A DNA stretch of 40,690 nucleotides from a virus (lineage: Duplodnaviria > Heunggongvirae > Uroviricota > Caudoviricetes): IMG/VR virus record IMGVR_UViG_2541047843_000008; one strand, 5' to 3'. Under the pieces are notes generated by a model. It searched no databases. It was not told the origin of the DNA and saw nothing but the letters and a program-made list of their open reading frames with translations. A program made the translations under genes and the position numbers. Positions 517 to 35,493 of the stretch are shown here, piece by piece (position 1 is the stretch's first letter; each line of letters opens with the position of its first letter).

Positions 517-531
517 TAATCAGGAGGAGTC

Positions 532-1071: not shown

Positions 1072-1110
1072 ACGATGTTAGTAACTTCAAACCTATAATT
1101 CTTTAGGATA

Positions 1111-1141
1111 AAAAAACCCTCTGTAGTAACAGAGGGTTTTG
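1111..1141. terminator. Bidirectional rho-independent terminator between the flank gene and Rz
   Basis: Stem ACCCTCTG / CAGAGGGT with 6-nt loop, flanked by an A-run upstream and T-run downstream. Confidence 0.5.
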
Positions 1142-1289
1142 TTCATTCATAGTGCAGGGTCAAATCATTCCCACTCAATTATTTACGATAACCATAACCA
1201 ATTGAGTGATAACATTTTTCCAAATCTCAATTTTTCCCGTACCGTTTTATATACCGTCACCGGAAATCAGTACCATGAAAAATGCCATG

Positions 1290-3087: not shown

Positions 3088-3366
3088 ACTTTCTCCTGTT
3101 TACTATCTATAAGCCAGTCAATTATTGATGACTAAACCCGCATAGTAAACCATATATGAATCATTATTGTTCCATATCATATATCTCAATAAAAGTACTA
3201 ATGATTTTACAGAACGAGCCAGCAGAGTGGGGGCAGTTGTACAGGAACCATAGACTTAATTTTGTATTTAATAATGCTATGGTGTAATAAACCTGAACAT
3301 GTATTTAAAATACGTACTGATTCATGATAGAATTCAAAGATAACTTTTCACCAACTCAGTTTTTGA

Positions 3367-3395
3367 TGCCCGCAATATTTTGCGGGCTTTTTTTT
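3367..3395 (+). terminator. Rho-independent terminator, plus-strand orientation only
   Basis: Stem GCCCGCAA / TTGCGGGC followed by 8 T on the plus strand; abuts the tailspike stop. Confidence 0.5.
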
Positions 3396-6617: not shown

Positions 6618-6632
6618 TTACCTTTCAGGTGA
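6618..6632. promoter_or_regulatory. Operator-like palindrome variant TTACCTTTCAGGTGA
   Basis: One-mismatch copy of the recurring TTACCT-N3-AGGTAA palindrome, between the tailspike start and a plus-strand moron. Confidence 0.4.
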
Positions 6633-6669: not shown

Positions 6670-6689
6670 TACTGTATATTTATACAGTT
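6670..6689. promoter_or_regulatory. LexA (SOS) box upstream of the small antirepressor-like gene
   Basis: TACTGTATATTTATACAGTT fits CTGT-N8-ACAG with AT-rich spacer; 20-40 nt upstream of the ATG candidates at 6695 and 6710. Confidence 0.6.
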
Positions 6690-6709: not shown

Positions 6710-6967
6710 ATGCAGCAGTATCACTATCCACTGGAAGACGGATTTACCGAAAGGATTCACACGCCGGGAGGCGTCAGGTCACTGGTGGAGGGATCGCACT
6801 TGATGAAATTACTCCGGGATCTCGATAAGGATGGATTTAATGTCGATGGCCCACTTGCCGAACTGACTGCACTGATTAACTACGTCACCAGCTCACAGAT
6901 GTCTATGCAGGATCTGCAAACACATCTCGACTATTGTGCCGAACAATTACGAAAACAAACCAGATAA
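6710..6967 (+). CDS. Small antirepressor-like protein: stand-alone paralog of the C-terminal domain of the neighbouring antirepressor (Tum-like candidate); alternative start 6695
   Basis: About 80 aa align with the C-terminus of the 7285..7941 product (e.g. [36 protein letters not shown]); GGAG 9 nt upstream of ATG. Confidence 0.5.
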   Translation: MQQYHYPLEDGFTERIHTPGGVRSLVEGSHLMKLLRDLDKDGFNVDGPLAELTALINYVTSSQMSMQDLQTHLDYCAEQLRKQTR

Positions 6968-6998
6968 GGTTTGCAATTACCAAGTGGAGTGCTTATAT

Positions 6999-7013
6999 TT
7001 ACCTTTTCGGTAA
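6999..7013. promoter_or_regulatory. Operator-like palindrome TTACCTTTTCGGTAA
   Basis: Copy of recurring TTACC-N5-GGTAA palindrome downstream of the small ant-like gene. Confidence 0.45.
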
Positions 7014-7104
7014 ATTTACATCGCACTCCTCTTGTGCCATAGTAATCGGGCACTGGCAAAATCCAGTGCCGGGATTGGTCTCCCGGATTACTAAGTGGCG
7101 CATA

Positions 7105-7127
7105 CCACGCCAGACGTGGTTTTTTTA
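7105..7127 (+). terminator. Rho-independent terminator after the small antirepressor-like gene
   Basis: Stem CCACG / CGTGG with 5-nt loop followed by 8 T. Confidence 0.5.
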
Positions 7128-7284
7128 TGCGTATAGCACAGTCATGCCAGAATTATGGTGGGCTGAATGGGGGTCCGAAAGGACGCCGGTACCACTTAGG
7201 CCGGTAAGACCAACTCCGTTCAGTTCACCACCATCTGATTGGTCTCAGCGGTGGTGATGTAATTCGCTAAGTGGAGACGCCATC

Positions 7285-7941
7285 ATGAACGCTCAACTCA
7301 TCCCCGTATTCAACGGCACTATATCTAACGAAACAGCCCTACTTTGTAATGCCCGCGATCTGCACGCTTTTTTAGGTGTTAAAAAGGTGTTTGCAGCATG
7401 GATTACAAATCGCATATCAGAATACGAATTCATTGAAAATCAAGACTATATTTTGCTTTCCAATTTGGGAAAGCAAACATCTGGTAGAGGCGGCCACAAC
7501 CGCAAAGAGTACCACCTCACCCTTGATACAGCCAAAGAGCTGGCGATGGTCGAGCGTAACGAAAAAGGTCGCCAGGTGCGACGCTACTTCATTGAATGCG
7601 AGAAACGTTTAAGACAACAAGAAACAAAAGTGGAGAAGGTCTTGTCAGGCTTCATGCCCGCCATAATGGAGGCGATCAAGCTGGAAGACAAAAAAGAATA
7701 CAGCGCCCCACTGAAGCCCGGCTACCGCAGCCTGATTCATTCGCCGTCTGGTGTTCTCGGCCTGACGGAGAACTCACTGCTGATGAATCTGCTGAACCAG
7801 TTACAGGACGACGGGCACGACGTATCGGGCGCGGCGGCGGAGCTGACCACCATGTTCTGCTACATCGTCGGTGTGAGCAAATGCCTGCGTGATATCCAGA
7901 CCCACGCGGAGTACATCAACGACAAGGCAGGGTTCTTCTGA
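7285..7941 (+). CDS. Antirepressor-like protein (N-terminal Ant-type domain plus C-terminal domain shared with 6710..6967)
   Basis: N-terminus resembles phage antirepressor N-terminal domains as recalled; SD GGAGA upstream; C-terminal paralogy seen directly. Confidence 0.6.
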
Positions 7942-8013: not shown

Positions 8014-8028
8014 TTACCTTAAAGGTAA
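8014..8028. promoter_or_regulatory. Operator palindrome TTACCTTAAAGGTAA upstream of the two-gene cassette
   Basis: Perfect TTACCT-N3-AGGTAA palindrome 43 nt upstream of the ATG at 8071. Confidence 0.5.
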
Positions 8029-8070: not shown

Positions 8071-8397
8071 ATGACAAAACTTGGATTCGTGATGAGAGGT
8101 CCGGTAAGAAGCGGAACTCATGCAAAGCGTAGCAAGAGTCGTATTTTTACTGGTAAGGTTGTAGCACGTAAATCAGCTATTGGCTCGTTCAATAGTGAAA
8201 ATGCGGCATTGCGCCATATTTTTATCAGCACAAAGCCAAGAGCATCCGCTGATGTGCATACAATGTCTATTCCTATCACAAAGAATATCAAGCGGATAAA
8301 AAAGCTCTCATCTGCAGAATCAAAAGAGATATCTTTCCGCCAGCTTAACTCATTAGAAACGCATATGAAGGAAGAGGAATTCGATGTTTTTGAGTGA
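8071..8397 (+). CDS. Hypothetical basic protein, first gene of unassigned two-gene cassette
   Basis: ATG with GGAG SD; K/R/S-rich N-terminus; AT-rich moron-like composition. Confidence 0.5.
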   Translation: MTKLGFVMRGPVRSGTHAKRSKSRIFTGKVVARKSAIGSFNSENAALRHIFISTKPRASADVHTMSIPITKNIKRIKKLSSAESKEISFRQLNSLETHMKEEEFDVFE

Positions 8398-8896
8398 GTA
8401 TAGCGGGAAGGTTATACCTACTGGTGAGTTTAAAACTGATGACTTTCTGATTTCGCTAAAAGATGCTTTTAAACAACACTGGCGTCATGGTCATCATCCT
8501 GATCTGGGAAAAGATACTCTTTTTGAAAGACCAGACGAAGTATTAGGCTTCCATCTCAGAAAGGTTCATGTCAATATTGGTGAATATGCATCATATTCAT
8601 ACTCATGTACTGAACAGTGTTGGGATGAGTGGTCATATGGATTGATTGATGAACAAGGAAATTACAGGCCAAAACCAACCAGTAACGCATATCTCATATA
8701 TGCAGTCAATGAAATAAGAGATGCAGCCTTACTAGCTTATTGGGACCCGCCCGCACACACCAAAGCTAACGCAAAAGTTTGGATGGATTCCGTATTGAAT
8801 TTCACAAAATTATTTCATGAACGAACGAATACAGCTCCACTTAGTAGAAATGTTTATCCGTGGGATTATTCGTACAAATCCAAAAAGCCTGCATAG
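8384..8896 (+). CDS. Hypothetical protein, second gene of cassette (His-rich segment HWRHGHHPD)
   Basis: ORF overlaps upstream gene end by 14 nt (translational coupling); no recognisable family. Confidence 0.5.
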   Translation: MFLSEYSGKVIPTGEFKTDDFLISLKDAFKQHWRHGHHPDLGKDTLFERPDEVLGFHLRKVHVNIGEYASYSYSCTEQCWDEWSYGLIDEQGNYRPKPTSNAYLIYAVNEIRDAALLAYWDPPAHTKANAKVWMDSVLNFTKLFHERTNTAPLSRNVYPWDYSYKSKKPA

Positions 8897-8977
8897 TAGT
8901 TTTTTATGGACGAAACAAAAGTCAGTGCTACACTCATTGACGCCACATTGAGGTGGCTTATAGATGGAAATGTCACA

Positions 8978-9139
8978 ATGAAAAAAGCATTTGCTGCACT
9001 GTTCGTTTTGTTGTCTCTGGTAGCTTCAACTCAGGCCTTTGCCGGTCGTTGTCAGCACGACAGCGACACTGCTGCTGACGGCTCACGCTGCGGTGGGCGT
9101 TCTGCGGATTCCCGCCCAGGCGGCGGTGGCATTCGTTAA
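8978..9139 (+). CDS. Small secreted Cys-containing peptide (signal peptide MKKAFAALFVLLSLVASTQAFA)
   Basis: Internal ATG begins a canonical signal peptide; about 30-aa mature part with 2 Cys and a Gly-rich tail. Confidence 0.4.
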   Translation: MKKAFAALFVLLSLVASTQAFAGRCQHDSDTAADGSRCGGRSADSRPGGGGIR

Positions 9140-17465: not shown

Positions 17466-19936
17466 CAGAATCCCCCAACAGTAAGGCGAGGAATAACGGC
17501 AAGAACAGACAGCGGCAACGGATCAAGCTGACGGATTTTTACACGTCCGTTTTTGCCCCAGTTACTGTCCAGTTTCACTTCTACTTTTCCGGTAGCATCA
17601 TCAACAGGATCATCGTAGAACTCGAATTCACGCTGTGGATATTCGTACCATTTACCGCCGGGCGTAGTCGCCCAGATGCCGCGACTGGCATTCACAACCA
17701 GAGTAACGGACGGGATCACCTGTTTTTTGTCCAGCAGCGTTTCCTGTCCGTTAATGTTGATATCCAGTGTTTCGAATTCAGCAGTTATTGGCAGGCCGAT
17801 GTGCACAACAGCCCCAGGTGATTCCAGCGTGACGGCACCTCCGGAAACCACTTTCTGTGGTTCCACGTTCGCATCAGAGAGGATGTTTACGGTCTGGCCT
17901 TCAAGATGAGACAAGCCGCCAAATGTCCGGCGCGCCATCTGCCAGTTCGTGGTGGCCACATTCCTGAGGGATGGCGGGACGTTCCTGTTAGCACGAACCA
18001 CTACAGCGGTATTGCTGGTTACAGAAATAATGTCGCAACGTAATTCTTTTGACACCTCATCGCCAGTATCAGGATCAGTTCCGGTATAAGGGAACTGTAG
18101 TTGCGCGCCGACATCACTACTGGTGAAGTACGCACCACCAGAAACACTGATTGTATATTCCGCGCAGTAATCCCATTCGCCAGAACCACCAGTGATGGTC
18201 ATCGTTCTGTCAGACGTATTTCTTCCATCATAGCTAAGGCCAGAATCAACAAAGAAAGCATCTTCATCGCTGGTAAATAAACGGCTGGACAGTCGCTCGA
18301 TGTATCTCACTGTTTGCCCGTTAACGGTTCGGTTAATGACGAAATACACCGCATCTTCATTGCCTTCGCTGATACTGCATGTGCTTTCATATTTTCCGGT
18401 ACTGGACTGTGGTGCCCATGCAAAAACCTGTTGATCACGCAAATAGGTCATCACCAGTAATTTACCGTCATCACGAATGCAGAAGGCGCTGGAGTAAGGG
18501 ACTATCGAGAAGCACCAGTCAACAATGCTGTGCTTCTGAAAAAGATGATTGGCAAGGATGGTCAGGTCGTTCCCCTGATAGCCGTCAACATCGAATGAGT
18601 AGGCCAGATCACGGACAACGCTGCCTTTCTCCTGGACGAACAGAGCAATATTCGCCACGGCAATTGGTGGGACATTGCTCGAGCCATTTGATCCCTGAGA
18701 GCTGAATGCAAATGATGATGGGGTAAGCACTTTGTTCTGGTCGCCAGTGATGACGTACTCACCTCCGGAAGTCAGCGCCACCAGCGAACCAACATCAATC
18801 AGGTGACGGATCTCATTAACCTGACGCCCGGCATAGGTGTAGATAATTCTGTCGTCATCCTGCGTAGGATTGCTTTTGCCAAAATCCTTATAATCCCCAG
18901 TACGGCTGGCCCAGATAGTCTGAGGGAACGCAGTCGATGCGGCGAAGTAAAGACGCTGTTGATAATAAACAACAGTGCCAGGATAACCATTAACACTGTT
19001 CCAGGCATATTTAGCCCATTTATAGCTGGCATTATCCTCGCCCACGACCTGCGAAGGGATATAGGAAATCACCTCGGCAGTTGCAGTAGTTCCATTTGCA
19101 GCAGTGATACGGGCAATGCCAAAACCACTGTGCAGATATTCCCACTCAATGCCAGTATCATCATCACCGGATCCGCCCCAGCCATCCCATGATGTGCCTT
19201 CTGTATGCGAAGGGCGCAAAGTACCTGTTTTGCCTGCTGTAACGGCGCGATAGTAGTTACTGTCTGCACGGCGAATATCGCCAATCGACGTACTCTTACT
19301 GGTTTCCCATACCGGCACAGAATCCACTGCAGGCTGTTCCAGATAGAACAATTTGCCTACCTGCTCCGCGCCAAAAATAGAGGCGCTTGCCGTTAACGTA
19401 ATTGTCCCGGTGCTGGCGCTGGCATAAACCGTCAATGACTCATCAATATTGATATCTTCAAATGGCCCGTTCTTCGTTACCACATCAACCAGTTGCCAGT
19501 TGTCATGCGCATAGCGACGCAACTCTTTCGGCGGGTATGCCGGATGAACAAGCGTAAGCACGTCTGCGCTTTGCGTGAATTTAATTCGGAACAGATCGGC
19601 TTCAGTATATGGCGTGGCAATTTCATAAATAACATTGCTGCTGTTCAGCACCAACGCACCATCTTTGATAACGCGCATGTACTGGTGTCCGAACTCCAGA
19701 GCATAGGTCTGAACCGTCGAGAACTGGAACGGGATCAGGCGGCATTTCCGATTTGGGTATTTGGCGGCACCGACAAAACGCGTACCAGGTCGATTCTCAA
19801 CGCCGCCATACTGCCGCACGATAAAGTTATCGCACTTGCGCAATGCCACCTGGTACTTCGCCATGTCGATACGTCCGTACAACGACGGTCCAATCTCACC
19901 ACCAGCAAAGCTGGGCTGGATCCAACTGATAGCCAT
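17465..19936 (-). CDS. Tail tubular protein B-like (nozzle), T7 gp12 position
   Basis: 823 aa directly after the gp11-like gene; size and position match T7 gp12. Confidence 0.6.
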   Translation of the reverse strand: MAISWIQPSFAGGEIGPSLYGRIDMAKYQVALRKCDNFIVRQYGGVENRPGTRFVGAAKYPNRKCRLIPFQFSTVQTYALEFGHQYMRVIKDGALVLNSSNVIYEIATPYTEADLFRIKFTQSADVLTLVHPAYPPKELRRYAHDNWQLVDVVTKNGPFEDINIDESLTVYASASTGTITLTASASIFGAEQVGKLFYLEQPAVDSVPVWETSKSTSIGDIRRADSNYYRAVTAGKTGTLRPSHTEGTSWDGWGGSGDDDTGIEWEYLHSGFGIARITAANGTTATAEVISYIPSQVVGEDNASYKWAKYAWNSVNGYPGTVVYYQQRLYFAASTAFPQTIWASRTGDYKDFGKSNPTQDDDRIIYTYAGRQVNEIRHLIDVGSLVALTSGGEYVITGDQNKVLTPSSFAFSSQGSNGSSNVPPIAVANIALFVQEKGSVVRDLAYSFDVDGYQGNDLTILANHLFQKHSIVDWCFSIVPYSSAFCIRDDGKLLVMTYLRDQQVFAWAPQSSTGKYESTCSISEGNEDAVYFVINRTVNGQTVRYIERLSSRLFTSDEDAFFVDSGLSYDGRNTSDRTMTITGGSGEWDYCAEYTISVSGGAYFTSSDVGAQLQFPYTGTDPDTGDEVSKELRCDIISVTSNTAVVVRANRNVPPSLRNVATTNWQMARRTFGGLSHLEGQTVNILSDANVEPQKVVSGGAVTLESPGAVVHIGLPITAEFETLDININGQETLLDKKQVIPSVTLVVNASRGIWATTPGGKWYEYPQREFEFYDDPVDDATGKVEVKLDSNWGKNGRVKIRQLDPLPLSVLAVIPRLTVGGF

Positions 19937-23745: not shown

Positions 23746-25421
23746 TGTGATTGCCCACCCTGACCACTAACTGCATTCGCCATAGCTGACAAAACACTCG
23801 GATCCGAAGTTTTAGCTTCGCTTAGCGTCTTGGCGCCCTGTGCCGCCGCCATCCCCATCGCCATCATTTGTTGCTGCTGTTGCTGCTGTGCCCGTTGCTG
23901 GCGAGCCTGCTCAACCTGTTCCTGCGGAACAATGACGGTTGGAGACACTCCGGACATATCAGCGAATGCATCGATCGCCTGATCAACGTTGAGTTTGTCG
24001 AGAGCTTCTGGTTTCGCTTGCGCAAGTTGACCAATGAAGTTAACCGTGGACGCCAGACTGGACAGGCCGATAGACTTCTGCGCCTGAGCCATGACGGAAA
24101 TGTATTCGACCTTCAGGGGCATACCTTCCATCACGTCTGGCGGTGGCGGCAGCATGTTTTTACGCACCATCATCGAGAAAGAGCGGTCAATGAGAGGATT
24201 AAGACATTCGTCGTTCAGACGCTCCAGAACCGGCCCCAACATCAGAAGTTTTTCTTCTTTCATTTCGATCACCGCTTCAACAGGCATCGAGCGGGTATTG
24301 ATGTTCTGCAACATCATGAACAGATCGACAAAGTAGGCGCTGTTAATGATTTGACGAGTGTCCTGAATGTCTGCCACCAAATCTGCTGTACTGGGGTTAA
24401 CCAGATAAGCAGGCCTGAAACCATCCTGACCAGTAATCTGATCGATATACGTGATGTCGCCAGGAAGAAGGGAGGCACGCTGATTCTTGAGGGAAGTCGG
24501 AGCAACCATCGGCGGATTGGTGGCTTTATCAATCAACTGCGACTTGCGCTTCTGGAGAAGCTGCAATGCCTTAACAGGTCCAAGCGCCAGCATACCCGGG
24601 CATGATGATCCATAAACATCTTCGCCGTTAACTTCCCAGCGCGGAGCCATAATTGGAAACTCATCGAATCCGGACTCACGCAACAACTTGTCGTTATCGC
24701 CACCAACCTCGTAATAAACCGATTTGAATGGCTTGTTCTTGCTATCCAGCTTCGATGTATCGCGGTCAATGTTCGGGTAAACCGAATGCATCACTTCAAT
24801 CCACTTCTCGTAGGTTCCGCTTTCCCACATGCTTTTTACGGATTCGCTGACGTTATTTAGCCCGAACTCCTGAACAAGCTGACGAACAGTCATAGAGAAC
24901 TTGCGAAAACAGGTGTCCACACTGCCACGAGGTGAGTTAGCCAGGTAGTAACTGCCTATCGGGAATGGCATTGTGCGAATGATGTCCTCGTCATCCTCCA
25001 GCACTGCCATTGCACCAGTGCTGTATGTGCCGAGGCTTCCGTATAACTGCGGCAGCGACTGATAGAGATTCGACTTATTGAACATATCGTTCATGCGGTT
25101 CTGCACCGCCTCAAGCCACAACTTAACAGGGCCATAATCCATCATTTCAGGATCTGGCGTAGCCAGGCGAAACCACGGACGCGCGGGGCTTGTGATGCCT
25201 GACATCATGCCGCTGGCGAGAGTGCGCGCCGCCATAGTCCCGGTCGAATCAATAATGCGTGTATTGCGTCGATCGTTACGGTTGGCCTCAGAAGTCAGAA
25301 AGCGGGAACCACGCGGGTTGATGTAATCACTCAACTCGCGCCAGTGCGGCTCGAACGACTGACGCTCGCTTTCAAGTTGTGCGAACTGTTTGTTCAATCG
25401 CTCTTTAGTTGTTTCCGCCAT
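23742..25421 (-). CDS. Portal (head-tail connector) protein, T7 gp8-like
   Basis: 559 aa; Gln/Met/Ala-rich C-terminal tail as in T7 gp8 as recalled; GGAG SD. Confidence 0.8.
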   Translation of the reverse strand: MAETTKERLNKQFAQLESERQSFEPHWRELSDYINPRGSRFLTSEANRNDRRNTRIIDSTGTMAARTLASGMMSGITSPARPWFRLATPDPEMMDYGPVKLWLEAVQNRMNDMFNKSNLYQSLPQLYGSLGTYSTGAMAVLEDDEDIIRTMPFPIGSYYLANSPRGSVDTCFRKFSMTVRQLVQEFGLNNVSESVKSMWESGTYEKWIEVMHSVYPNIDRDTSKLDSKNKPFKSVYYEVGGDNDKLLRESGFDEFPIMAPRWEVNGEDVYGSSCPGMLALGPVKALQLLQKRKSQLIDKATNPPMVAPTSLKNQRASLLPGDITYIDQITGQDGFRPAYLVNPSTADLVADIQDTRQIINSAYFVDLFMMLQNINTRSMPVEAVIEMKEEKLLMLGPVLERLNDECLNPLIDRSFSMMVRKNMLPPPPDVMEGMPLKVEYISVMAQAQKSIGLSSLASTVNFIGQLAQAKPEALDKLNVDQAIDAFADMSGVSPTVIVPQEQVEQARQQRAQQQQQQQMMAMGMAAAQGAKTLSEAKTSDPSVLSAMANAVSGQGGQSQ

Positions 25422-25435
25422 TTCAATGACTCCGG

Positions 25436-25642
25436 TTACTGACCAAGCAGCGTTTTACCGCTGGTATTAGCGGTTGATGTGTCACCCTGAGAACCGGTAA
25501 GCAGCGTAGAACTACGACCAGCAGCAGCGCGACGGCGACGAGTTTCTTCGTCGCGGGCATCAACAACGGCGGCATCCTGCTCCTGTGGTGCTGCCTGAAC
25601 TTCTGGTGTTGCAGGCACTGACGGTGAGCTACCCATGCACAT
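25436..25642 (-). CDS. Small hypothetical protein preceding portal
   Basis: ATG with a GGAGTCATTGA translation-initiation region that is duplicated in front of the portal gene. Confidence 0.4.
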   Translation of the reverse strand: MCMGSSPSVPATPEVQAAPQEQDAAVVDARDEETRRRRAAAGRSSTLLTGSQGDTSTANTSGKTLLGQ

Positions 25643-25710
25643 ATCAATGACTCCGTACGCAATTAAATTATTACCAATTTAACCACATATGATTTATTTA
25701 TCGTAGATAG

Positions 25711-25747
25711 TTGACATTTAACGCACGAATTATTACCTTTCAGGTAA
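25711..25747. promoter_or_regulatory. Promoter-like region (TTGACA) with operator palindrome TTACCTTTCAGGTAA upstream of tRNA moron and portal operon
   Basis: TTGACA hexamer at about 25711-25716; perfect palindrome at about 25733-25747. Confidence 0.5.
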
Positions 25748-26069
25748 GCAAATGGTTCATTCCGGTTATTAACCTGACTGGCTTGTCGTTAAATTGAACA
25801 GGTGGAGTGAGCTTTTATTTTGAGCAGTACGGCGTATGGCACATGCGCCGATAGCGGTCTGGATACGTTTAAGGGGCACCCTCCCTTGCTCGGGCAAACG
25901 AACCAGGTAGCCGGAATGTGCAAGTCGAGCGGTTTTATTCCGCGCACGGGGATTCACCATCCCGGCGATTCGGTGTGACGCCTCGGAAGAGACGAGGGTA
26001 CAACGATGAGAGCATTTATGGAGCCGCGACAAAGTGTGGTGCCTTAACAGGCTAAGTGCTCTCAGCGTT

Positions 26070-26146
26070 GTGGCATTAGCTCAGTCGGACAGAGCAACCG
26101 CCTTCTAAGCGGTTGGTCGCAGGTTCGAATCCTGCATGCCACGCCA
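26070..26146 (+). tRNA. tRNA-Arg (anticodon UCU, reads AGA), phage-encoded
   Basis: Cloverleaf read by hand: acceptor GTGGCAT/ATGCCAC, D-arm GCTC..GAGC, anticodon loop CUUCUAA, T-arm GCAGGTTCGAATCCTGC, discriminator G, CCA end. Confidence 0.9.
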
Positions 26147-26189
26147 GAATCACGCCTAAGGACCGTGATGCCAGAAGTTCCAGGTGCTT

Positions 26190-26232
26190 GGCGGTGATGG
26201 TTTCCCTTGAAGGACTATCACCGCCCTTTTTA
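26190..26232 (+). terminator. Rho-independent terminator after the tRNA
   Basis: 9-bp stem GGCGGTGAT / ATCACCGCC followed by CTTTTTA. Confidence 0.5.
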
Positions 26233-26349
26233 CAGCAGGACGCCATTGCGATGACTTCATGCTGTAAACCAGTACAGCCACGGAAGGCATAACTCATTGC
26301 TTCCAGTTCGCCCGGTTCGCAGGGCATTTTTTTAAGGTGAGATTAGACT

Positions 26350-26721
26350 ATGAGTGAAAAAGACATTGAATCTGAAATTCAGGCTAAAGGTTTAGCCGCG
26401 CCGCGCGTTACGCCAGACCATATCGAGAGCATTATTGCTCAGGAGGCATATTTCACAGCAGAAGATGGTGCCTTTGGCGTAGCCATAAAAGCGAAACATA
26501 CTGGCGGAGAGGTAAACTACCAGCCGCACGAATCACTTTCTCTGCTGACGTTCTGCGTCCTGGTGCTGCGCAACGGCTTCACCGTCACCGGAGAGAGCGC
26601 CTGTGCAAGCCCGGAAAACTTTGATGCAGAAATTGGTCGGAAGATTGCCCGACAGAATGCTGTAAACAAAATCTGGATGCTCGAAGGTTACTTGCTGAAG
26701 CAGAAGTTAAGCGAGCAATAA
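26350..26721 (+). CDS. Hypothetical moron protein downstream of the tRNA
   Basis: ATG with AAGGTGAG SD; opposite strand to the flanking packaging and head genes. Confidence 0.55.
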   Translation: MSEKDIESEIQAKGLAAPRVTPDHIESIIAQEAYFTAEDGAFGVAIKAKHTGGEVNYQPHESLSLLTFCVLVLRNGFTVTGESACASPENFDAEIGRKIARQNAVNKIWMLEGYLLKQKLSEQ

Positions 26722-26741
26722 CACCGTGACATATCACAAAC

Positions 26742-26768
26742 AGCCAGCCTATGAGCTGGCTTTGTTTT
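26742..26768. terminator. Putative terminator between moron gene and terminase large subunit
   Basis: Stem AGCCAGC / GCTGGCT with 6-nt loop followed by TTGTTTT. Confidence 0.45.
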
Positions 26769-26811
26769 ATCCTCATCAGAGGATATCAACAACATTATCC
26801 CCTCAAGCGGA

Positions 26812-28287
26812 TTAAGCATAGGGATCGTAATCTGTAATGGCCCTTCCCTGCTGGCTTTGCTGTCCTGGTATATTTATGCGTTTCGAGACCGGGAAAGCAA
26901 ACGTCAGCAGTAGCGCATCGCCTTTACCCGGCGAACGCCCAAGCCGCTCCTTGATATCTTCCTTCGGTTCGATAACGATTTTACCGTCCACTCGAACTTT
27001 GTACTCTGCCGCCGACAGGTCGTCCGCTGTTTCCTGGTCATCCAGCATGCCGCCCAGCCTCAGCCATGTCTTGCATGAGTTGAACATCTCCCCACGCTTG
27101 TTGAGCATCTGCGGGTCAGTAGACGCGCCACCGAACGGAACAAGTTGCCATGTACGACCCCAGCCGTCACCGATTGACTTCAAACCGGTTCCGTAACCGA
27201 AGTCGATGAACACCGCGTCAGCCTGATACTGGTCTTCAAAGTCAGCGATACGCTTCGCCATAATCAGATCGTCGGTAGTCTTGTTGCCAGTCCACAGCAC
27301 CTTACTGTGTAGCCCCTGCCGCAGGTATATCACAGCGTCATCAACGCCGGAGTATGCCGGGTCAACGCCGATTATCACCGGAGCATGTGCAACCTGCGCA
27401 GCGGTTACCACCCGTTTCATTGCCTCGTCAGTAAGACCGGTAGGGATAAACTGCAATTCAGATGCATCAGGGAATATGCCACGCACACGGATTTTAACGA
27501 AGTCGCTGTCTTCCCCGTAGTCATCAACCCATTTCTGCAACTGCTGTTTGTTGGTACCTTCCACCGTCCGACTGTCAATCTGCGCAGTTTTCCAGCGGTG
27601 TTTATACTTGCGGAAACATTCACGGAAACGTCCGGTATTACGCGTCGGGTTTCCGAACGCCACCCAGATAATCTCAGTGTCTTCGTCCGTTAGCGCACCT
27701 TCGGCAACTTCCCACACCAGATCCGCAATGTTCGACGCTTCATCAAACACCACGATGATGCGTTTGCGCTCGTTGTGTAGTCCGGCGAACGCCTCAGTGT
27801 TGTGCTCAGACCAGGGTATTGCGTCAGCACGCCACCGCTTGTCGTGCCCAGGGTCATTGCTGTACATCGCGGTAGCGGTACAGGTAAACCAGTCTTTCGT
27901 GATAGCAAGGTTCGACCACTTGATAATTTCCGGCCAGGTCTTCGTTCGTAGCTGGTTGTCGGTGTTGGCGGTCACCACGACCTTACAATCCTCGCAAGTG
28001 GACATGCCCCAGTTGATCAGCATTGAGATGAATGCGGATTTACCAATACCGTGACCAGAAGCACGTGCCAGCATAAGCGGCTGATATCTCGTCTCTGGAT
28101 TCTGCAGGTGATCACGTATCTCTCGGAACGCATCGGCCTGCCACTGACGTGGACCGGTGGCATGTGCCAGTTCAGTACCCTCTTCCCCCCACGGGAACGC
28201 ATAGAGGGCATAGCCAAGCGGATCGTGAGTGAACCCTGCAATATCCTCGATCAACTGCTCTTCAGGAGATAACGCTGTATCTGTCAC
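26812..28287 (-). CDS. Terminase large subunit
   Basis: 491 aa; Walker A-like ASGHGIGKS; acidic nuclease-type C-terminal half; GTG start overlapping the TerS stop. Confidence 0.9.
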   Translation of the reverse strand: MTDTALSPEEQLIEDIAGFTHDPLGYALYAFPWGEEGTELAHATGPRQWQADAFREIRDHLQNPETRYQPLMLARASGHGIGKSAFISMLINWGMSTCEDCKVVVTANTDNQLRTKTWPEIIKWSNLAITKDWFTCTATAMYSNDPGHDKRWRADAIPWSEHNTEAFAGLHNERKRIIVVFDEASNIADLVWEVAEGALTDEDTEIIWVAFGNPTRNTGRFRECFRKYKHRWKTAQIDSRTVEGTNKQQLQKWVDDYGEDSDFVKIRVRGIFPDASELQFIPTGLTDEAMKRVVTAAQVAHAPVIIGVDPAYSGVDDAVIYLRQGLHSKVLWTGNKTTDDLIMAKRIADFEDQYQADAVFIDFGYGTGLKSIGDGWGRTWQLVPFGGASTDPQMLNKRGEMFNSCKTWLRLGGMLDDQETADDLSAAEYKVRVDGKIVIEPKEDIKERLGRSPGKGDALLLTFAFPVSKRINIPGQQSQQGRAITDYDPYA

Positions 28288-28880
28288 TGATTACCATCCT
28301 GACGTTCTTTGAGTCGCTTCCTGGCTGCTGCTATGCGATCAGCAATTGTCACATTCACATTAACATCCAGACGTTCTTTGAACGCGTTGACATCAACATG
28401 CTTACCAATCAGCTCAAGGTTCTTCACCTTGTCAGGCCATTTAATTTTTTTGAGGATTGTCTCTATCGAATCCTCGTTCATGTTCATGATGGTCGATGAC
28501 AGATCAAAGCCACTAAGCGTAGTGCGCCAGATTTTCGGCCACTCGCGGATTGGCTTAAGGCTCCCATCGTCGTTGAGGATGTCGATCACGTCCATCTGGT
28601 CGATCTCCACCAGGCGCATGAGAACGTAATCAGCACTGACGCGCATTCGTTTGTTGCGCTCCTCCATCAACTCGGCAATCCGTTTTTGAATGCGTTCATC
28701 GCGCATCATGACACTGGCTTTAACTGCCGCTGTATTTGGGGAGAATCCTGCGTTAATCGCTGCCTGAGTCTGGTTTTCAGGCGTTTTGATGTATGACTGG
28801 CAATAAGCCTCCTGCATTGCTGTTAGTGGCTTAAATTGCGTTGATTTGCGTTTATAGGTTTTAGGTTCAGCAGGCATCAT
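28284..28880 (-). CDS. Terminase small subunit
   Basis: KPLTAMQEAYCQSYIKTPENQTQAAINAGFS matches the common terminase small subunit N-terminal HTH pattern; start taken at internal ATG after a terminator. Confidence 0.7.
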   Translation of the reverse strand: MMPAEPKTYKRKSTQFKPLTAMQEAYCQSYIKTPENQTQAAINAGFSPNTAAVKASVMMRDERIQKRIAELMEERNKRMRVSADYVLMRLVEIDQMDVIDILNDDGSLKPIREWPKIWRTTLSGFDLSSTIMNMNEDSIETILKKIKWPDKVKNLELIGKHVDVNAFKERLDVNVNVTIADRIAAARKRLKERQDGNQ

Positions 28881-28887
28881 AACCACC

Positions 28888-28916
28888 GTGGTAATAGTTA
28901 CCGTTGTGGTAATAGT
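28888..28916. repeat. Tandem direct repeat GTGGTAATAGT x2 in the terminase leader
   Basis: Two 11-bp copies 18 bp apart, between an upstream terminator and the TerS start. Confidence 0.5.
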
Positions 28917-28931
28917 ACCATGCAAAATAAA

Positions 28932-28955
28932 GCCGCCATAGTTGGCGGCAGTATT
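28932..28955 (-). terminator. Rho-independent terminator separating nin-like genes from the packaging/late operon
   Basis: Stem GCCGCCA / TGGCGGC with 4-nt loop, U-run (UUUAUUUUG) on the minus-strand side. Confidence 0.5.
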
Positions 28956-29188
28956 CAAAGTCCATCAAATTCATCGTAAAAACTCTCGTCAAGATACCCT
29001 TCCCATTTACCGCGAATGAAAATTACATCCTCGCCGCAAGGGTGCTGACTGTCGATAACTATATCCCTCCTGGCGCAACCATACTTATGCATGAGAAATT
29101 TAACCTCTTTCGGAAAATTTGCTGAGTTATCTCTCATATCTTCAAGGTCGTAGCGTATTTTTGGCATAACACCTTCGTGACATGTCAC
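28955..29188 (-). CDS. Hypothetical protein
   Basis: 77-aa ORF in nin-like block. Confidence 0.4.
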   Translation of the reverse strand: MTCHEGVMPKIRYDLEDMRDNSANFPKEVKFLMHKYGCARRDIVIDSQHPCGEDVIFIRGKWEGYLDESFYDEFDGL

Positions 29189-29526
29189 ACTATTAATTTC
29201 GTTTCATGCCAGCCTTTGGTCACCCAGCATTGCGAGTCACCATTACACGGGCATGAATTAACTGGAACTCTCTCGCCGCACTTACCGCAACGTTTTCTGC
29301 TGATCGATTTTATACGCCCGCGCACGCGTGCATCATCCTGGCGGATCAGTAACGCTATATACTCACCAAATTCGTAAGGCGCACGCCCGGGGCGACGCGT
29401 GGCACAGTTACGCTCCAGCATTTCAATTTCCTGAGCATCAAGCACAATCTCCAGTTTACGCACACCAGATGCAGCTTGTCTGGCTCTCTGAGCGGCTTTG
29501 CGCTCTGCTGCTGATTTAGCCATCAA
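29185..29526 (-). CDS. Hypothetical Cys-rich (zinc-finger-like) protein
   Basis: CGKCG...CPCNGDSQC cluster; basic N-terminus. Confidence 0.4.
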   Translation of the reverse strand: MMAKSAAERKAAQRARQAASGVRKLEIVLDAQEIEMLERNCATRRPGRAPYEFGEYIALLIRQDDARVRGRIKSISRKRCGKCGERVPVNSCPCNGDSQCWVTKGWHETKLIV

Positions 29527-32361: not shown

Positions 32362-32438
32362 TTACCTCTGAGGTAATTAAAAACCACATAAGACATGAAA
32401 TCAATAGAGTTTACAATATTTTGTTACCTAACAGGTAA
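32362..32438. promoter_or_regulatory. Regulatory hub: two TTACCT-N3-AGGTAA palindromes (about 32362-32376 and 32424-32438) flanking an AACCACATA element
   Basis: Two perfect palindromes about 62 bp apart between the P-like stop and the DUF1064 start. Confidence 0.5.
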
Positions 32439-34241: not shown

Positions 34242-34340
34242 TTTTTCCGCCCCTTTTTGTTATTGATATTGGCTATTTTGCACAATTGGAAAATTTGATC
34301 AACCAGATTTGGTTTTTTATTACCTTTGAGGTACGAATAG

Positions 34341-34368
34341 ATATGAAAAGACCGCCGGGTGGCGGTCT
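34341..34368 (-). terminator. Rho-independent terminator immediately downstream of the Cro-like gene (tR1-like position)
   Basis: 8-bp stem AGACCGCC / GGCGGTCT with GGGT loop; U-run on the minus-strand side. Confidence 0.5.
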
Positions 34369-34389: not shown

Positions 34390-34620
34390 TCATGAGTAGA
34401 AGAAGTATGCCAGTTCTGCTTTTGAGCGCAGCCATTGTCTTGTTTTACAGGCTTTAAAAAGCCCATTCATCAATACCTTACCTGGCATTTTGCGCTTGCC
34501 TGTTAAGTGAGTCTGGATATAGTGACTCGTCGTTCCGGCTTCCTGTGCGAAGGCTTCACGCTCATCCGGAGTAAGTGCAAGCCAGTGCTTTTTGAAATCG
34601 AAATGTCCGTTATCGCTCAT
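34390..34620 (-). CDS. Cro-like HTH regulator
   Basis: 76 aa, HTH-like segment, divergent from the repressor gene across the operator cluster. Confidence 0.55.
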   Translation of the reverse strand: MSDNGHFDFKKHWLALTPDEREAFAQEAGTTSHYIQTHLTGKRKMPGKVLMNGLFKACKTRQWLRSKAELAYFFYS

Positions 34621-34656
34621 AGCTATTGCCTGATATTTATTTCAGATAATAAATAT

Positions 34657-34720
34657 TCACCCATAAGGTAACAAAAATCAAGGATAGTTACCTATGAGGT
34701 GCATTTACCTGTTGGGTAAT
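34657..34720. promoter_or_regulatory. Immunity-region operator cluster: three TTACC-N5-GGTAA-type palindromes between the divergent Cro-like and repressor genes
   Basis: TCACCCATAAGGTAA, TTACCTATGAGGTGC, TTACCTGTTGGGTAA at about 34657-34671, 34688-34702, 34706-34720. Confidence 0.55.
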
Positions 34721-34774
34721 ATTGCTTTAAATTGAATCATCTACTGATTCATATATGAGGCGATTTTCCAGAAA

Positions 34775-35359
34775 ATGAAAAGTATCCAGGACGTCCGCAG
34801 GCAAAATCTCAACGACTTGATCGACCGTGAATTCAATGGTGTTCAGACGCGGATGGCAGAAAAACTTGGAACTCAGGCAAATCTGGTAAACCGCTGGGCT
34901 CTTGGCAAGAAGGTTATCGGCGACCAGGTTGCACGAAAAATTGAAGCTGCCGCCAATAAACCCCGTAACTGGCTTGATATTGATCGTTCGCTTTCTCAGG
35001 AGGGTTTTCAGCCTGTCGGCCCGAGCGATATAGGTCAGCTGGCGGCTCACAATCTGGAACGCTGGATGAGCGAAAGCCGCGACCTTTCAACACAGGGAAA
35101 ACTTCACCGCGCATCCGGCGTCGCCCAGGTGACAATCAGCCGCCTGTTAAACAATGAGGTCAGCGTTTCCATTTCCACCCTGGAGAATGTTGCATCCGCA
35201 TTCGGGCGTCACGGATATGAACTACTGATTCACCCGCACGACCCTGCGACTATCAACTATGACCGCTCACGCTACGCATTGTTACCCGAAACCGAGAAAG
35301 CAAAGATCGAAAGTTACATTGAATTTGTCATCAACCAGAACGAAAAAAGCAAACAATAA
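34775..35359 (+). CDS. Repressor candidate with two XRE-type HTH domains and no LexA-like autocleavage domain
   Basis: HTH-like segments VQTRMAEKLGTQANLVNRWALGKK and LHRASGVAQVTISRLLNNEVSVSISTLENVASAFG; own terminator downstream. Confidence 0.6.
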   Translation: MKSIQDVRRQNLNDLIDREFNGVQTRMAEKLGTQANLVNRWALGKKVIGDQVARKIEAAANKPRNWLDIDRSLSQEGFQPVGPSDIGQLAAHNLERWMSESRDLSTQGKLHRASGVAQVTISRLLNNEVSVSISTLENVASAFGRHGYELLIHPHDPATINYDRSRYALLPETEKAKIESYIEFVINQNEKSKQ

Positions 35360-35380
35360 AACTATATTTTTCAGTAAGTA

Positions 35381-35406
35381 AGCCGCCTCATGGCGGCTTT
35401 TTTATT
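35381..35406 (+). terminator. Rho-independent terminator after repressor gene
   Basis: Stem AGCCGCC / GGCGGCT with 5-nt loop followed by 7 T. Confidence 0.6.
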
Positions 35407-35416
35407 GCCAGATAGA

Positions 35417-35493
35417 TTACCTTACGGGTAATTTTTTTAACTCATATCTATTGACACCAAACCAAATAAGCATAATTATTACCTCAACGGTAA
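35417..35493. promoter_or_regulatory. Early (PL-like) promoter region with TTGACA flanked by two operator palindromes
   Basis: TTACCTTACGGGTAA (about 35417-35431), TTGACA (about 35451-35456), AT-rich -10 candidates, TTACCTCAACGGTAA (about 35479-35493). Confidence 0.55.

What the first reader, a model, noticed from the sequence alone, without database searches (positions are those of the whole stretch)
34657..35493. One 15-bp palindrome (TTACCT-N3-AGGTAA) recurs at 12 or more sites across early, replication, late and moron promoter regions
Seen: perfect or one-mismatch copies at about 34657, 34688 and 34706 (between the divergent Cro-like and repressor genes), 35417 and 35479 (flanking a TTGACA early promoter), 34320 (after the tR1-like terminator), 32362 and 32424 (before the DUF1064 gene), 25733 (before the tRNA moron and portal operon), 8014 (before the two-gene cassette), 6999 (antirepressor leader) and 6618 (before the tailspike and small ant gene). 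Inference: this is the phage repressor/Cro operator, and the repressor controls a dispersed regulon including moron and late-entry promoters, comparable to multi-site repressors such as N15 CB. The motif is neither a LexA, CRP nor lambda-type site.
Basis: partly seen in the sequence, partly recalled or inferred. Interest (0 to 1): 0.7.

Follow-up and report, generated by a model that had tools for sequence, protein, structure and literature searches.

The report
Repressor operators of an epsilon15-like prophage
The repeated palindrome is real and is almost certainly the binding site of this phiV10/epsilon15-type phage's lysogeny repressor, placed in front of nearly every transcription unit. 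The same dispersed sites are already annotated in phage epsilon15, so this is a well-supported but ordinary finding.

Summary
TTACCT-N3-AGGTAA occurs 10 times at one mismatch or fewer (0.04 expected), and all 12 reported sites exist. The conserved core is TTACC-N5-GGTAA, or ATTACC-N5-GGTAAT at 17 bp. Two further sites, 28880 and 28898, lie before the small terminase gene. All 14 sites are intergenic, although only 8.1% of the window is. In 200 kb of E. coli K-12 the 12-base motif has no hit at one mismatch or fewer.

The window is a phiV10-like Uetakevirus. Its 194-aa repressor is a full-length homologue of Salmonella phage SPC32H Rep (PDB 5D50, E=3.5e-42). A small antirepressor 86% identical to SPC32H Ant sits behind a perfect LexA box. 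The epsilon15 RefSeq record already marks the same palindrome as "repressor" binding sites at equivalent dispersed positions.

The layout is conserved in epsilon15, SPC32H, Tyrion, phiv142-3 and two more distant prophages. It comprises three sites between rep and the cro-like gene, two operator pairs exactly 62 bp apart, an 18-bp pair before terS, and single sites before the portal operon and the tailspike.

Novelty: a new member of a known kind. Physical binding was not tested.

The parts
34657..34671 (.). Operator nearest the cro-like gene (TCACCCATAAGGTAA). It covers the spacer and part of the -35 of the leftward PR-like promoter.
   Evidence: for the site. for the promoter-like site on the - strand, 34674..34646 (TTGTTA-17-TATTAT). 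Conserved in 7 genomes.
34688..34702 (.). Middle operator of the rep/cro intergenic triple (TTACCTATGAGGTGC; weak right half).
   Evidence: The right half is GGTGC in the phiV10-like, Tyrion, L086 and L087 genomes and GGTAA in epsilon15/SPC32H.
34705..34719 (.). Operator nearest rep (TTACCTGTTGGGTAA; exact core), 17 bp from the middle site.
   Evidence: Identical in all 80 IMG/VR loci that carry the same Rep. Conserved.
35417..35431 (.). Upstream operator of the PL-like pair, about 20 bp upstream of the -35.
   Evidence: In 80 loci the half-sites are invariant while the spacer has at least 8 alleles.
35479..35493 (.). Downstream operator of the PL-like pair. It starts at the last base of the -10 and lies exactly 62 bp from 35417.
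   Evidence: TTGACA-17-AATTAT at 35451..35479. The 62-bp spacing is kept in five other genomes (phiv142-3, epsilon15, Tyrion, SPC32H, L087).
34320..34334 (.). Lone site (TTACCTTTGAGGTAC) just downstream of the terminator that follows the cro-like gene and before the next leftward gene.
   Evidence: Terminator at 34368..34349 on the - strand. Equivalent sites occur in phiv142-3 and Tyrion. The right half varies in the population.
32424..32438 (.). Upstream member of a second 62-bp operator pair. It lies after the replication-gene terminator and before the DUF1064 operon.
32362..32376. Downstream member of that pair. It overlaps the ribosome-binding site of the DUF1064 gene, whose start is at 32358 on the - strand.
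   Evidence: DUF1064 assignment.
28898..28912 (.). Operator before terS (TTACCGTTGTGGTAA; exact core).
   Evidence: Equivalent to the epsilon15 site 12-27, which is annotated 'repressor'.
28880..28894 (.). Weaker partner site 18 bp away (TAACCACCGTGGTAA). It abuts the terS start codon at 28877.
   Evidence: An 18-bp pair is conserved in phiv142-3, epsilon15, Tyrion and L087.
25733..25747 (.). Lone exact site between the portal/structural operon (- strand) and the tRNA-Arg region (+ strand).
   Evidence: Equivalent to the epsilon15 site 2931-2947, annotated 'repressor'. Also present in Tyrion, SPC32H and phiv142-3.
8014..8028 (.). Exact site at the -10/+1 of a weak promoter-like sequence (TTGCAG-17-TACTAT, read by eye) before the 8071-9139 cassette of unknown function.
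   Evidence: Also in phiv142-3. The cassette has no hit in the PADLOC or NCBIfam libraries.
6999..7013 (.). Operator overlapping the -10/+1 of the promoter TTGCAA-17-TATATT (6971..6999). That promoter drives the isrK-like RNA, the C4-like RNA and the antA antirepressor operon.
6618..6632 (.). Site in the divergent region between the tailspike gene (start 6513, - strand) and the small ant gene (+ strand).
   Evidence: Equivalent to the epsilon15 site 19895-19911, annotated 'repressor', and to SPC32H 20013 between ant and tsp.
34775..35359 (+). Rep, the lysogeny repressor (194 aa). It has an N-terminal HTH DNA-binding domain and a C-terminal HTH_3-like domain, and no peptidase domain.
   Evidence: PDB 5D50 (SPC32H Repressor), E=3.5e-42 over residues 1-190. 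Pfam finds HTH families only. 43% identical to the epsilon15/SPC32H Rep, with a conserved NLVNRW stretch. The same protein blocks lytic growth when overexpressed in phage ZX5 (PMC9782041).
34390..34620 (-). Cro-like small regulator (76 aa), divergent from rep. It is a probable second reader of the same operators.
   Evidence: phrog_35 'transcriptional repressor', E=5.6e-13. 76% identical to epsilon15 gp39.
6710..6967 (+). Small antirepressor Ant (85 aa) of the SPC32H type.
   Evidence: 86% identical to SPC32H Ant. The gene is named 'ant' in record KC911856.
6672..6687 (.). Perfect LexA box, CTGTATATTTATACAG, 23 bp upstream of the ant start codon.
7050..7235 (+). Leader RNAs of the second antirepressor: isrK-like RNA (7050-7126, ending in a terminator) and C4-type antisense RNA (7151-7235).
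   Evidence: Rfam RF01394 scores 67.7 bits (gathering 50) and RF01695 scores 61.2 bits (gathering 45). Both are full-length matches.
7285..7941 (+). Large antirepressor. It has an AntA N-terminal domain, and its C-terminal domain belongs to the same family as the small Ant.
   Evidence: Pfam AntA, E=4e-26. phrog_377 'anti-repressor Ant', and phrog_450 on residues 135-216.

Best explanation
The palindrome ATTACC-N5-GGTAAT is the operator of the prophage's lysogeny repressor Rep (34775..35359). Rep is an SPC32H/epsilon15-type repressor that cannot cleave itself.

Inferred binding mode: pairs of N-terminal helix-turn-helix domains read the two TTACC half-sites. The 76-aa Cro-like protein probably reads the same sites.

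Where promoters can be recognised, the operator sits on them:
- in the spacer/-35 of the leftward early promoter (34657);
- at the -10/+1 of the rightward early promoter (35479), with a partner 62 bp upstream (35417);
- at the -10/+1 of the promoter of the RNA-gated second antirepressor (6999);
- at the -10/+1 of a weak moron promoter (8014).

Further sites sit at the head of the middle (DUF1064), terminase, portal/structural and tailspike units, often just after a terminator. Inferred consequence: one repressor directly silences, or blocks read-through into, nearly every transcription unit in the lysogen.

SPC32H Rep is reported to bind DNA as a tetramer. The invariant 62-bp spacing, about six helical turns, at two loci fits one tetramer bridging two operators on the same face of the DNA. 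This step is inferred.

Induction would run as follows. DNA damage removes LexA from the box in front of the small ant gene, and Ant strips Rep from DNA. This also derepresses the second antirepressor operon. That step is inferred from homology with SPC32H.
For: Shown directly:
- Motif enrichment.
- All 14 sites lie in the 8.1% of the window that is intergenic.
- The motif is rare in 200 kb of host DNA.
- Rep is homologous to PDB 5D50 over its full length and has no peptidase domain.
- The epsilon15 RefSeq record annotates the same palindrome as repressor-binding sites at 7 dispersed, positionally equivalent places.
- The same layout, with spacings of 62, 62, 18 and 17+30/31 bp, occurs in phiv142-3, epsilon15, Tyrion and SPC32H, and largely in the 54-55%-identity Rep prophages L086/L087.
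- In alignments of the PL and OR regions, the invariant columns concentrate on the half-sites and the -35.
- In 80 prophages the half-sites of the sites tracked cleanly are almost fixed while the spacers are polymorphic.
- Operators overlap promoter-like hexamers at PL, PR and the antA promoter.
- The Ant homologue and LexA box are present.

From papers:
- Overexpressing the repressor of phage ZX5 abolishes free phage and cuts lysis-gene transcripts by more than 99.9% (PMC9782041). ZX5's immunity region is 97.9% identical to the window's, and the paper states its repressor has the same sequence as that of phiV10.
- SPC32H Rep binds palindromic sites as a tetramer (secondary account in PMC9638917).
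Against: No binding experiment exists for this phage, and I could not read the primary epsilon15 and SPC32H papers. The epsilon15 sites are a record annotation whose experimental basis I could not check.

The motif is the same in every Rep homologue found, down to 43% identity. There is therefore no operator/protein covariation to tie the motif to Rep rather than to the equally conserved Cro-like protein.

No convincing sigma-70 promoter was found at 25733, 28880/28898 or 34320. The rep promoter itself was not identified.

Host background was sampled on 4.3% of one genome only.
Confidence: 0.85

Rival explanations
1. The immunity-region and promoter-overlapping sites are true operators. The promoter-less distal sites (34320, 28880/28898, 25733, perhaps 32362) do not occlude promoters. 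Instead they act as roadblocks to read-through transcription after leaky terminators, as stoperators do, or as anchors for Rep-mediated DNA loops.
For: Several of these sites lie directly downstream of predicted terminators and upstream of the next gene, with no promoter-like hexamers. Two of them overlap ribosome-binding sites rather than -10 elements. A tetrameric repressor has spare DNA-binding pairs (PMC9638917).
Against: Late promoters may depend on an activator and be invisible to a sigma-70 consensus scan. The palindrome has no orientation, so the orientation test that defines stoperators cannot be applied. epsilon15 annotates an IHF site next to the portal-operon operator, which suggests a regulated promoter there.
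Confidence: 0.3
2. The palindrome is read mainly by the Cro-like 76-aa protein or by another phage regulator. Rep recognises something else.
For: The Cro-like protein is even better conserved than Rep across phages that share the motif, at 76-84% identity. It matches a 'transcriptional repressor' family. No covariation separates the two candidates.
Against: The epsilon15 curators assign the sites to the repressor. Rep's N-terminal domain is conserved wherever the motif is. Sites flank rep's own gene and the early promoters as expected for an immunity repressor. Switches of this kind normally have both proteins sharing the operators, so this is more an addition than a replacement.
Confidence: 0.07
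3. The motif works at the RNA level, as a short hairpin that hides AGGU Shine-Dalgarno-like sequences, or it is a by-product of ribosome-binding sites and AT-rich promoter DNA.
For: AGGTAA resembles a Shine-Dalgarno sequence. Sites 32362 and 28880 overlap ribosome-binding sites.
Against: Several sites overlap the -10/+1 and would not be fully transcribed. Sites serve genes on both strands. The mismatched sites do not preserve G-U pairing on one strand. A 5-6 bp stem is weak. Host DNA, rich in ribosome-binding sites, lacks the palindrome.
Confidence: 0.03

Closest known systems
Repressor gp38 of phage epsilon15 and Rep/Ant of Salmonella phage SPC32H (genus Uetakevirus)
   Same: The two-domain repressor is homologous (PDB 5D50, E=3.5e-42; 43% identity). 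The operator palindrome ATTACC-N5-GGTAAT is the same, and so are the relative positions and spacings of the operators. The small Ant is homologous (86%) and sits behind a LexA box. The Cro-like gene is homologous (76%).
   Different: The Rep C-terminal half is much more diverged than Ant or the Cro-like protein. This lineage adds operators at a second, RNA-gated antirepressor operon (6999) and at a moron cassette (8014). It lacks the site before the lysis cassette that epsilon15, SPC32H and Tyrion have. The operators are not annotated in the phiV10, phiv142-3, Tyrion and SPC32H records I read.
Phage P1 C1 repressor, with its many dispersed operators and the immI (c4 RNA-icd-ant) region (from my own knowledge)
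   Same: One repressor has operators scattered over the genome at separate transcription units. One of these is on the promoter of an antirepressor operon whose leader encodes a C4-type antisense RNA; the C4 family match is.
   Different: P1 operators are asymmetric 17-mers and C1 is not an HTH_3-type protein. Here the operator is a true palindrome and the repressor belongs to a different family. No homology to C1 was tested.
Mycobacteriophage L5 gp71 'stoperators' (from my own knowledge)
   Same: Many repressor sites lie in short intergenic gaps throughout the genome, some away from promoters.
   Different: Stoperators are asymmetric and act in one orientation on elongating polymerase. These sites are symmetric and several clearly overlap promoter hexamers.
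N15 CB repressor
   Same: A temperate enterobacterial phage repressor with several operator sites beyond the primary immunity region.
   Different: No sequence relationship was shown or tested here. The epsilon15/SPC32H system is a direct homologue and makes this analogy unnecessary.
Lambda CI/Cro switch
   Same: Repressor and cro-like genes are divergent with three operators between them, and a second operator set lies at the other early promoter.
   Different: There is no RecA-cleavable peptidase domain, and induction is by antirepressor. Operators also sit at middle, late, tailspike and moron units, rather than late genes being reached only through an antitermination cascade.

Membership tests
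epsilon15/SPC32H-type Rep-operator immunity system | Repressor homologous over its full length to SPC32H Rep (N-terminal DNA-binding HTH plus C-terminal oligomerisation/Ant-binding domain) | tested here: met
   phmmer against PDB: 5D50_A, E=3.5e-42, query residues 1-190; 5D4Z (C-terminal domain), E=3.6e-20. Alignment.
epsilon15/SPC32H-type Rep-operator immunity system | No LexA/CI-type S24 peptidase domain (repressor that does not cleave itself) | tested here: met
   Pfam reports only HTH_3, HTH_26, LacI-HTH, YdaS and HTH_31.
epsilon15/SPC32H-type Rep-operator immunity system | Operator is the palindrome ATTACC-N5-GGTAAT, as annotated for the epsilon15 repressor | tested here: met
   The 7 epsilon15 protein_bind 'repressor' features read ATTACC-N5-GGTAAT. 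The window has 9 exact cores.
epsilon15/SPC32H-type Rep-operator immunity system | Operators at the same genomic positions (rep/cro gap, left early promoter, before terS, the portal operon, the tailspike and the post-replication operon) | tested here: met
   Site tables for 7 genomes. Alignments A4 and A5.
epsilon15/SPC32H-type Rep-operator immunity system | Small antirepressor Ant under LexA control | tested here: met
   The 85-aa protein is 86% identical to SPC32H Ant. A perfect CTGT-N8-ACAG box lies at 6672-6687. LexA control itself is inferred from the box.
epsilon15/SPC32H-type Rep-operator immunity system | Rep physically binds the palindromes (as a tetramer) and is released by Ant | not testable with these tools
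   Only a secondary account is available, for SPC32H (PMC9638917). The primary papers are not held.
Lambda-type CI/Cro switch | RecA-stimulated self-cleavage through a C-terminal S24 peptidase domain | tested here: not met
   No peptidase family in the Pfam scan.
Lambda-type CI/Cro switch | Three operators between divergent repressor and cro genes, overlapping the two promoters | tested here: inconclusive
   Three conserved sites are present and one overlaps a PR-like promoter. The rep promoter could not be placed.
P1 C1 dispersed-operator regulon with immI | C4-type antisense RNA in the leader of an antirepressor operon whose promoter carries a repressor operator | tested here: met
   Rfam C4 at 61.2 bits (gathering 45) at 7151-7235. 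Operator 6999 lies on the promoter at 6971-6999.
P1 C1 dispersed-operator regulon with immI | Asymmetric 17-bp operators read by a C1-family protein | tested here: not met
   The operator is a symmetric palindrome and the repressor is of the HTH_3/SPC32H Rep type. The asymmetric form of the P1 operator is from my own knowledge.
L5-type stoperators | Asymmetric sites whose orientation matches the direction of transcription | tested here: not met
   The sites are symmetric, so orientation is undefined.
N15 CB multi-site repressor | Homology of the repressor or the operator sequence to CB and its sites | not tested
   No N15 sequence was fetched. A direct homologue (SPC32H Rep) was found instead.

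The most novel reading that the evidence does not exclude
In epsilon15-like phages, lysogeny is kept by one antirepressor-sensitive tetrameric repressor rather than by a lambda-type cascade. This repressor directly clamps every transcription unit: both early operons, the middle operon, terminase, the structural operon, the tailspike, a moron and a second antirepressor. It uses operator pairs at a fixed 62-bp, same-face spacing, together with lone sites that act as loop anchors or roadblocks. The Rep-repressed, RNA-gated second antirepressor, whose C-terminal domain resembles Ant, would form a positive-feedback latch that makes SOS induction irreversible.
Probability: 0.35. Interest if true: 0.5.

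Novelty: new member of a known kind. Interest (0 to 1): 0.3.

Why it matters
phiV10-like prophages are very common in E. coli. More than 80 near-identical Rep loci turned up in one viral-contig scan, and the repressor cluster has 618 member sequences. phiV10 itself infects E. coli O157:H7.

A complete operator map tells which prophage genes are silenced directly by Rep, including the morons and the two antirepressors. It also predicts cross-immunity between E. coli, Salmonella, Enterobacter and Serratia phages that share the operator.

The conserved 62-bp operator pairs give a simple, testable geometry for how the unusual SPC32H-type tetrameric repressor engages DNA. None of this changes current understanding of phage repressors.

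Tried and rejected
1. Primary papers. I tried to read epsilon15 genome (PMC2698709), SPC32H antirepression (PMC3807360) and the Rep-Ant structure (PMC4983836). None is held. What I say about LexA control of Ant and about Rep domains rests on titles, on a secondary account, on record annotations and on memory.

2. Operator/protein covariation. I looked for it to tie the motif to Rep. The viral-contig scan returned only 99-100% identical Rep loci. The protein search reached 52% identity, and the two distant prophages I fetched keep the same motif. No covariation test is possible.

3. Literature on Uetakevirus operators. Nothing was found. The ZX5 paper defines no operator.

4. Promoter scans at 25400-29300 found no sigma-70-like site next to the 25733 or 28880/28898 operators. 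The rep promoter could not be placed by eye.

5. A site before the lysis cassette, present in epsilon15, SPC32H and Tyrion. The window has only a decayed remnant.

6. PADLOC and NCBIfam scans of the 8071-9139 cassette and of the ORFs at the window start gave nothing useful.

7. Rejected explanations:
- Chance (shuffles, host sample).
- RNA hairpin or ribosome-binding-site artefact (the sites overlap the -10/+1, and the palindrome is absent from host DNA).
- LexA site (a separate, canonical LexA box exists at 6672).
Full report

Yes. TTACCTNNNAGGTAA gives 10 matches at one mismatch or fewer, against 0.04 expected from shuffles. At two mismatches or fewer it gives 15 matches against 0.81 expected.

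- The conserved unit is TTACC-N5-GGTAA: 9 exact copies and 13 at one mismatch or fewer, against 0.56 expected.
- A count over 42 exact-core sites from five genomes gives aTTACC-t-n-W-n-a-GGTAAt.
They are 18 bp apart and lie between a terminator and the terS start codon.
- All 14 sites lie wholly in intergenic DNA, which makes up 8.1% of the window.
- Four 50-kb samples of E. coli MG1655 hold no copy of the 12-base motif at one mismatch or fewer, and one exact core. The window holds 10 and 9.

**2. What is the element?**

The window is a phiV10-like member of the genus Uetakevirus (epsilon15-like podophages). It is 97-98% identical to phages HEMP4, phiv142-3, ZX5 and phiV10.

- The gene at 34775..35359 encodes a 194-aa protein that aligns over its whole length with the repressor of Salmonella phage SPC32H. 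The PDB match is 5D50 (E=3.5e-42), and 5D4Z matches the C-terminal domain.
- Pfam finds only helix-turn-helix families and no S24 peptidase.
- The divergent 76-aa gene (34390..34620, - strand) matches a phage 'transcriptional repressor' family. It is 76% identical to epsilon15 gp39.
- An 85-aa gene at 6710..6967 is 86% identical to SPC32H Ant. It is preceded by a perfect LexA box, CTGTATATTTATACAG, at 6672-6687.

**3. The decisive comparison**

The curated epsilon15 RefSeq record carries seven protein_bind features labelled 'repressor / lysogeny'. They read ATTACC-N5-GGTAAT. They lie:

- before terS;
- before the portal operon;
- between gp19 (the Ant homologue) and the tailspike gene;
- three times between the repressor gene and the left early operon;
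- after the replication genes.

The window has sites at the same relative places. It is not annotated in the phiV10, phiv142-3, Tyrion or SPC32H records I read.

**4. Conservation**

I scanned phiv142-3, epsilon15, Tyrion and SPC32H. I also scanned two prophages whose Rep is only 54-55% identical, one in Serratia and one from a metagenome-type assembly.

- Five of these genomes keep the same architecture. The Serratia prophage L086 keeps the motif but differs in spacing: 75 bp instead of 62 at the left early promoter, and no 62-bp pair ahead of the post-replication operon.
- The shared architecture has five parts:
  - a triple of sites between rep and the cro-like gene, spaced 17 + 30/31 bp;
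  - a pair exactly 62 bp apart at the left early promoter;
  - a second pair exactly 62 bp apart ahead of the post-replication operon (DUF1064 or RuvC);
  - a pair 18 bp apart before terS;
  - single sites before the portal operon and in the ant/tailspike gap.
- In alignments of the two immunity-region gaps, the invariant columns are concentrated on the half-sites and the -35 hexamer, while spacers and flanks vary.
- In 80 IMG/VR prophages with 99-100% identical Rep, four sites could be followed cleanly:
  - 35417 keeps TTACC/GGTAA in all the alleles listed (at least 70 of the 80 loci), while its 5-bp spacer has at least eight alleles;
  - 35479 behaves the same way, apart from one locus where the search picked up the partner site;
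  - 34705 is identical in all 80;
  - 34320 keeps its left half in all but one locus, and its weak right half varies.
- The search for the other four sites (34657, 34688, 32362, 32424) landed on neighbouring operators and says nothing about them.
- This is the pattern expected of a protein-binding palindrome under selection.

**5. How it probably works**

Shown:
- The site at 35479 begins at the last base of the -10 of a strong promoter-like sequence, TTGACA-17-AATTAT. Its partner at 35417 lies about 20 bp upstream of the -35.
- The site at 34657 covers the spacer and part of the -35 of a leftward promoter-like sequence in front of the cro-like gene.
- The site at 6999 overlaps the -10/+1 of TTGCAA-17-TATATT.

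Read by eye and weak:
- The site at 8014 overlaps TTGCAG-17-TACTAT.

Inferred:
- Rep bound at these sites blocks initiation.

The sites at 34320, 32424/32362 and 28898/28880 follow predicted terminators and precede the next gene cluster. Two of them overlap ribosome-binding sites, and I found no sigma-70-like promoter next to 25733, 28880/28898 or 34320. These may control activator-dependent promoters, or they may act as roadblocks or loop anchors. I give that alternative about 0.3 for this subset.

A secondary account states that SPC32H Rep binds palindromic DNA as a tetramer, and that each DNA-binding pair is formed by domains from different dimers (PMC9638917). The invariant 62-bp spacing, close to six helical turns, at two separate loci in five or six genomes fits one tetramer bridging two operators on one face of the DNA. 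This is my inference, not a result.

Functional support comes from phage ZX5. Its immunity region is 97.9% identical to the window's, and the paper states its repressor has the same sequence as that of phiV10. Overexpressing that repressor abolished free phage and cut holin and endolysin transcripts by more than 99.9%. That paper defined no operator (PMC9782041).

**6. Induction**

By homology with SPC32H, LexA would hold the small ant gene off, and DNA damage would release Ant, which removes Rep from DNA. The LexA-to-Ant step is inferred from the box and from the title of Kim and Ryu 2013, which I could not read.

The site at 6999 adds a further layer.
- The 270-nt leader it controls contains full-length Rfam matches to isrK (7050-7126, 67.7 bits) and to the C4 antisense RNA (7151-7235, 61.2 bits), ahead of the AntA-type antirepressor gene.
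- This is the arrangement of the Gifsy-1 isrK-orf45-anrP operon, in which read-through of the isrK terminator and the sRNA gate translation of the antirepressor-like protein (PMC4825925).
- From memory, it is also the arrangement of the P1/P7 immI region.
- The C-terminal domain of AntA belongs to the same family as the small Ant.
- A Rep-repressed second antirepressor would reinforce induction once Rep starts to fall. This is inferred.

**7. Which protein reads the sites?**

I could not separate Rep from the Cro-like protein by computation. Both are conserved wherever the motif occurs, and the motif does not change across the Rep homologues I could reach. Shared operators are the usual arrangement, so I treat Cro-like binding as an addition rather than a rival.

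An RNA-level role is unlikely.
- Several sites straddle the -10/+1.
- The sites serve both strands.
- The imperfect sites do not preserve G-U pairing.
- Host DNA lacks the palindrome.

**8. Comparison and novelty**

This system is a member of the epsilon15/SPC32H Rep-operator family. All five testable defining features are met; physical binding could not be tested. In the dispersal of its operators and in its C4-RNA-gated antirepressor it works like P1 C1, but it is not a member of that family: the operator is symmetric and the protein is of a different type. The comparison with N15 CB is only a loose analogy.

Modest new points:
- a full 14-site map for the phiV10 lineage;
- the two sites before terS;
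- the exact 62-bp pairs at two loci;
- Rep operators on the isrK/C4-antA promoter and on a moron promoter.

Interest is 0.3. The finding is real and neatly organised, but a specialist who knows the epsilon15 annotation would expect it.

Noticed in passing
window 7050-7235 (+): The leader of the antA antirepressor gene holds full-length Rfam matches to the isrK Hfq-binding RNA (7050-7126, ending in a terminator) and to the C4 antisense RNA (7151-7235). This is a Gifsy-1 isrK-anrP / P1 immI-type RNA-gated antirepressor module inside an epsilon15-like podophage.
   Followed up: partly
window 6672-6687: A perfect LexA box, CTGTATATTTATACAG, lies 23 bp upstream of the small ant gene (6710-6967), which is 86% identical to SPC32H Ant. 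This implies SOS induction through an antirepressor rather than repressor cleavage.
   Followed up: partly
window 7285-7941 (+) and 6710-6967 (+): The large AntA-type antirepressor carries a C-terminal domain (residues 135-216) of the same family (phrog_450) as the small Ant. The phage therefore has two Ant-domain proteins under different controls: LexA for one, and Rep plus RNAs for the other.
   Followed up: no
window 34775-35359 versus 6710-6967: The Rep C-terminal half, the part reported to bind Ant in SPC32H, is much more diverged from SPC32H/epsilon15 than Ant is. Rep is 43% identical overall, against 86% for Ant. How such a conserved Ant keeps recognising such a diverged partner is unexplained.
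   Followed up: no
window 35417/35479 and 32362/32424; L002-L005, L087: Both operator pairs are exactly 62 bp apart centre to centre, in the window and at the equivalent pairs of phiv142-3, epsilon15, Tyrion and SPC32H. The left early pair of L087 is also 62 bp apart. In the Serratia prophage L086 the corresponding pair is 75 bp apart.
   Followed up: partly
window 26070-26146 (+): tRNA-Arg(TCT) lies on the strand opposite to the flanking terminase and structural genes. The phiv142-3 record places its tRNA on the other strand at the equivalent position, so one of the two calls is wrong. ARAGORN and Rfam both place it on + here.
   Followed up: no
window 8071-9139 (+): A three-gene cassette sits behind the 8014 operator. 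Its proteins of 108 and 170 aa match only families of unknown function; the 170-aa protein has a sub-threshold YafO-toxin resemblance. There is no hit in PADLOC or NCBIfam. It may be a toxin-antitoxin or defence moron under Rep control.
   Followed up: partly
window 3088-3393: epsilon15, SPC32H and Tyrion have an operator before the lysis cassette. The window has only a decayed remnant there. The region between the tailspike and the lysis genes has been exchanged in this lineage.
   Followed up: partly
window 1-1162: The first 1.16 kb holds two + strand ORFs of 171 and 179 aa. The first has a weak resemblance to a glycine-zipper/OmpA-like lipoprotein. Among listed phages this stretch is shared only with TL-2011b, and it looks like a cargo region next to the lysis genes.
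   Followed up: no
L003 (epsilon15) 33341, 33358, 33388, 35969, 24704: The epsilon15 record annotates 7 repressor sites but omits the three sites between rep and gp39, the partner of the 35906 site, and the site before the lysis cassette. All have exact or near-exact cores.
   Followed up: no
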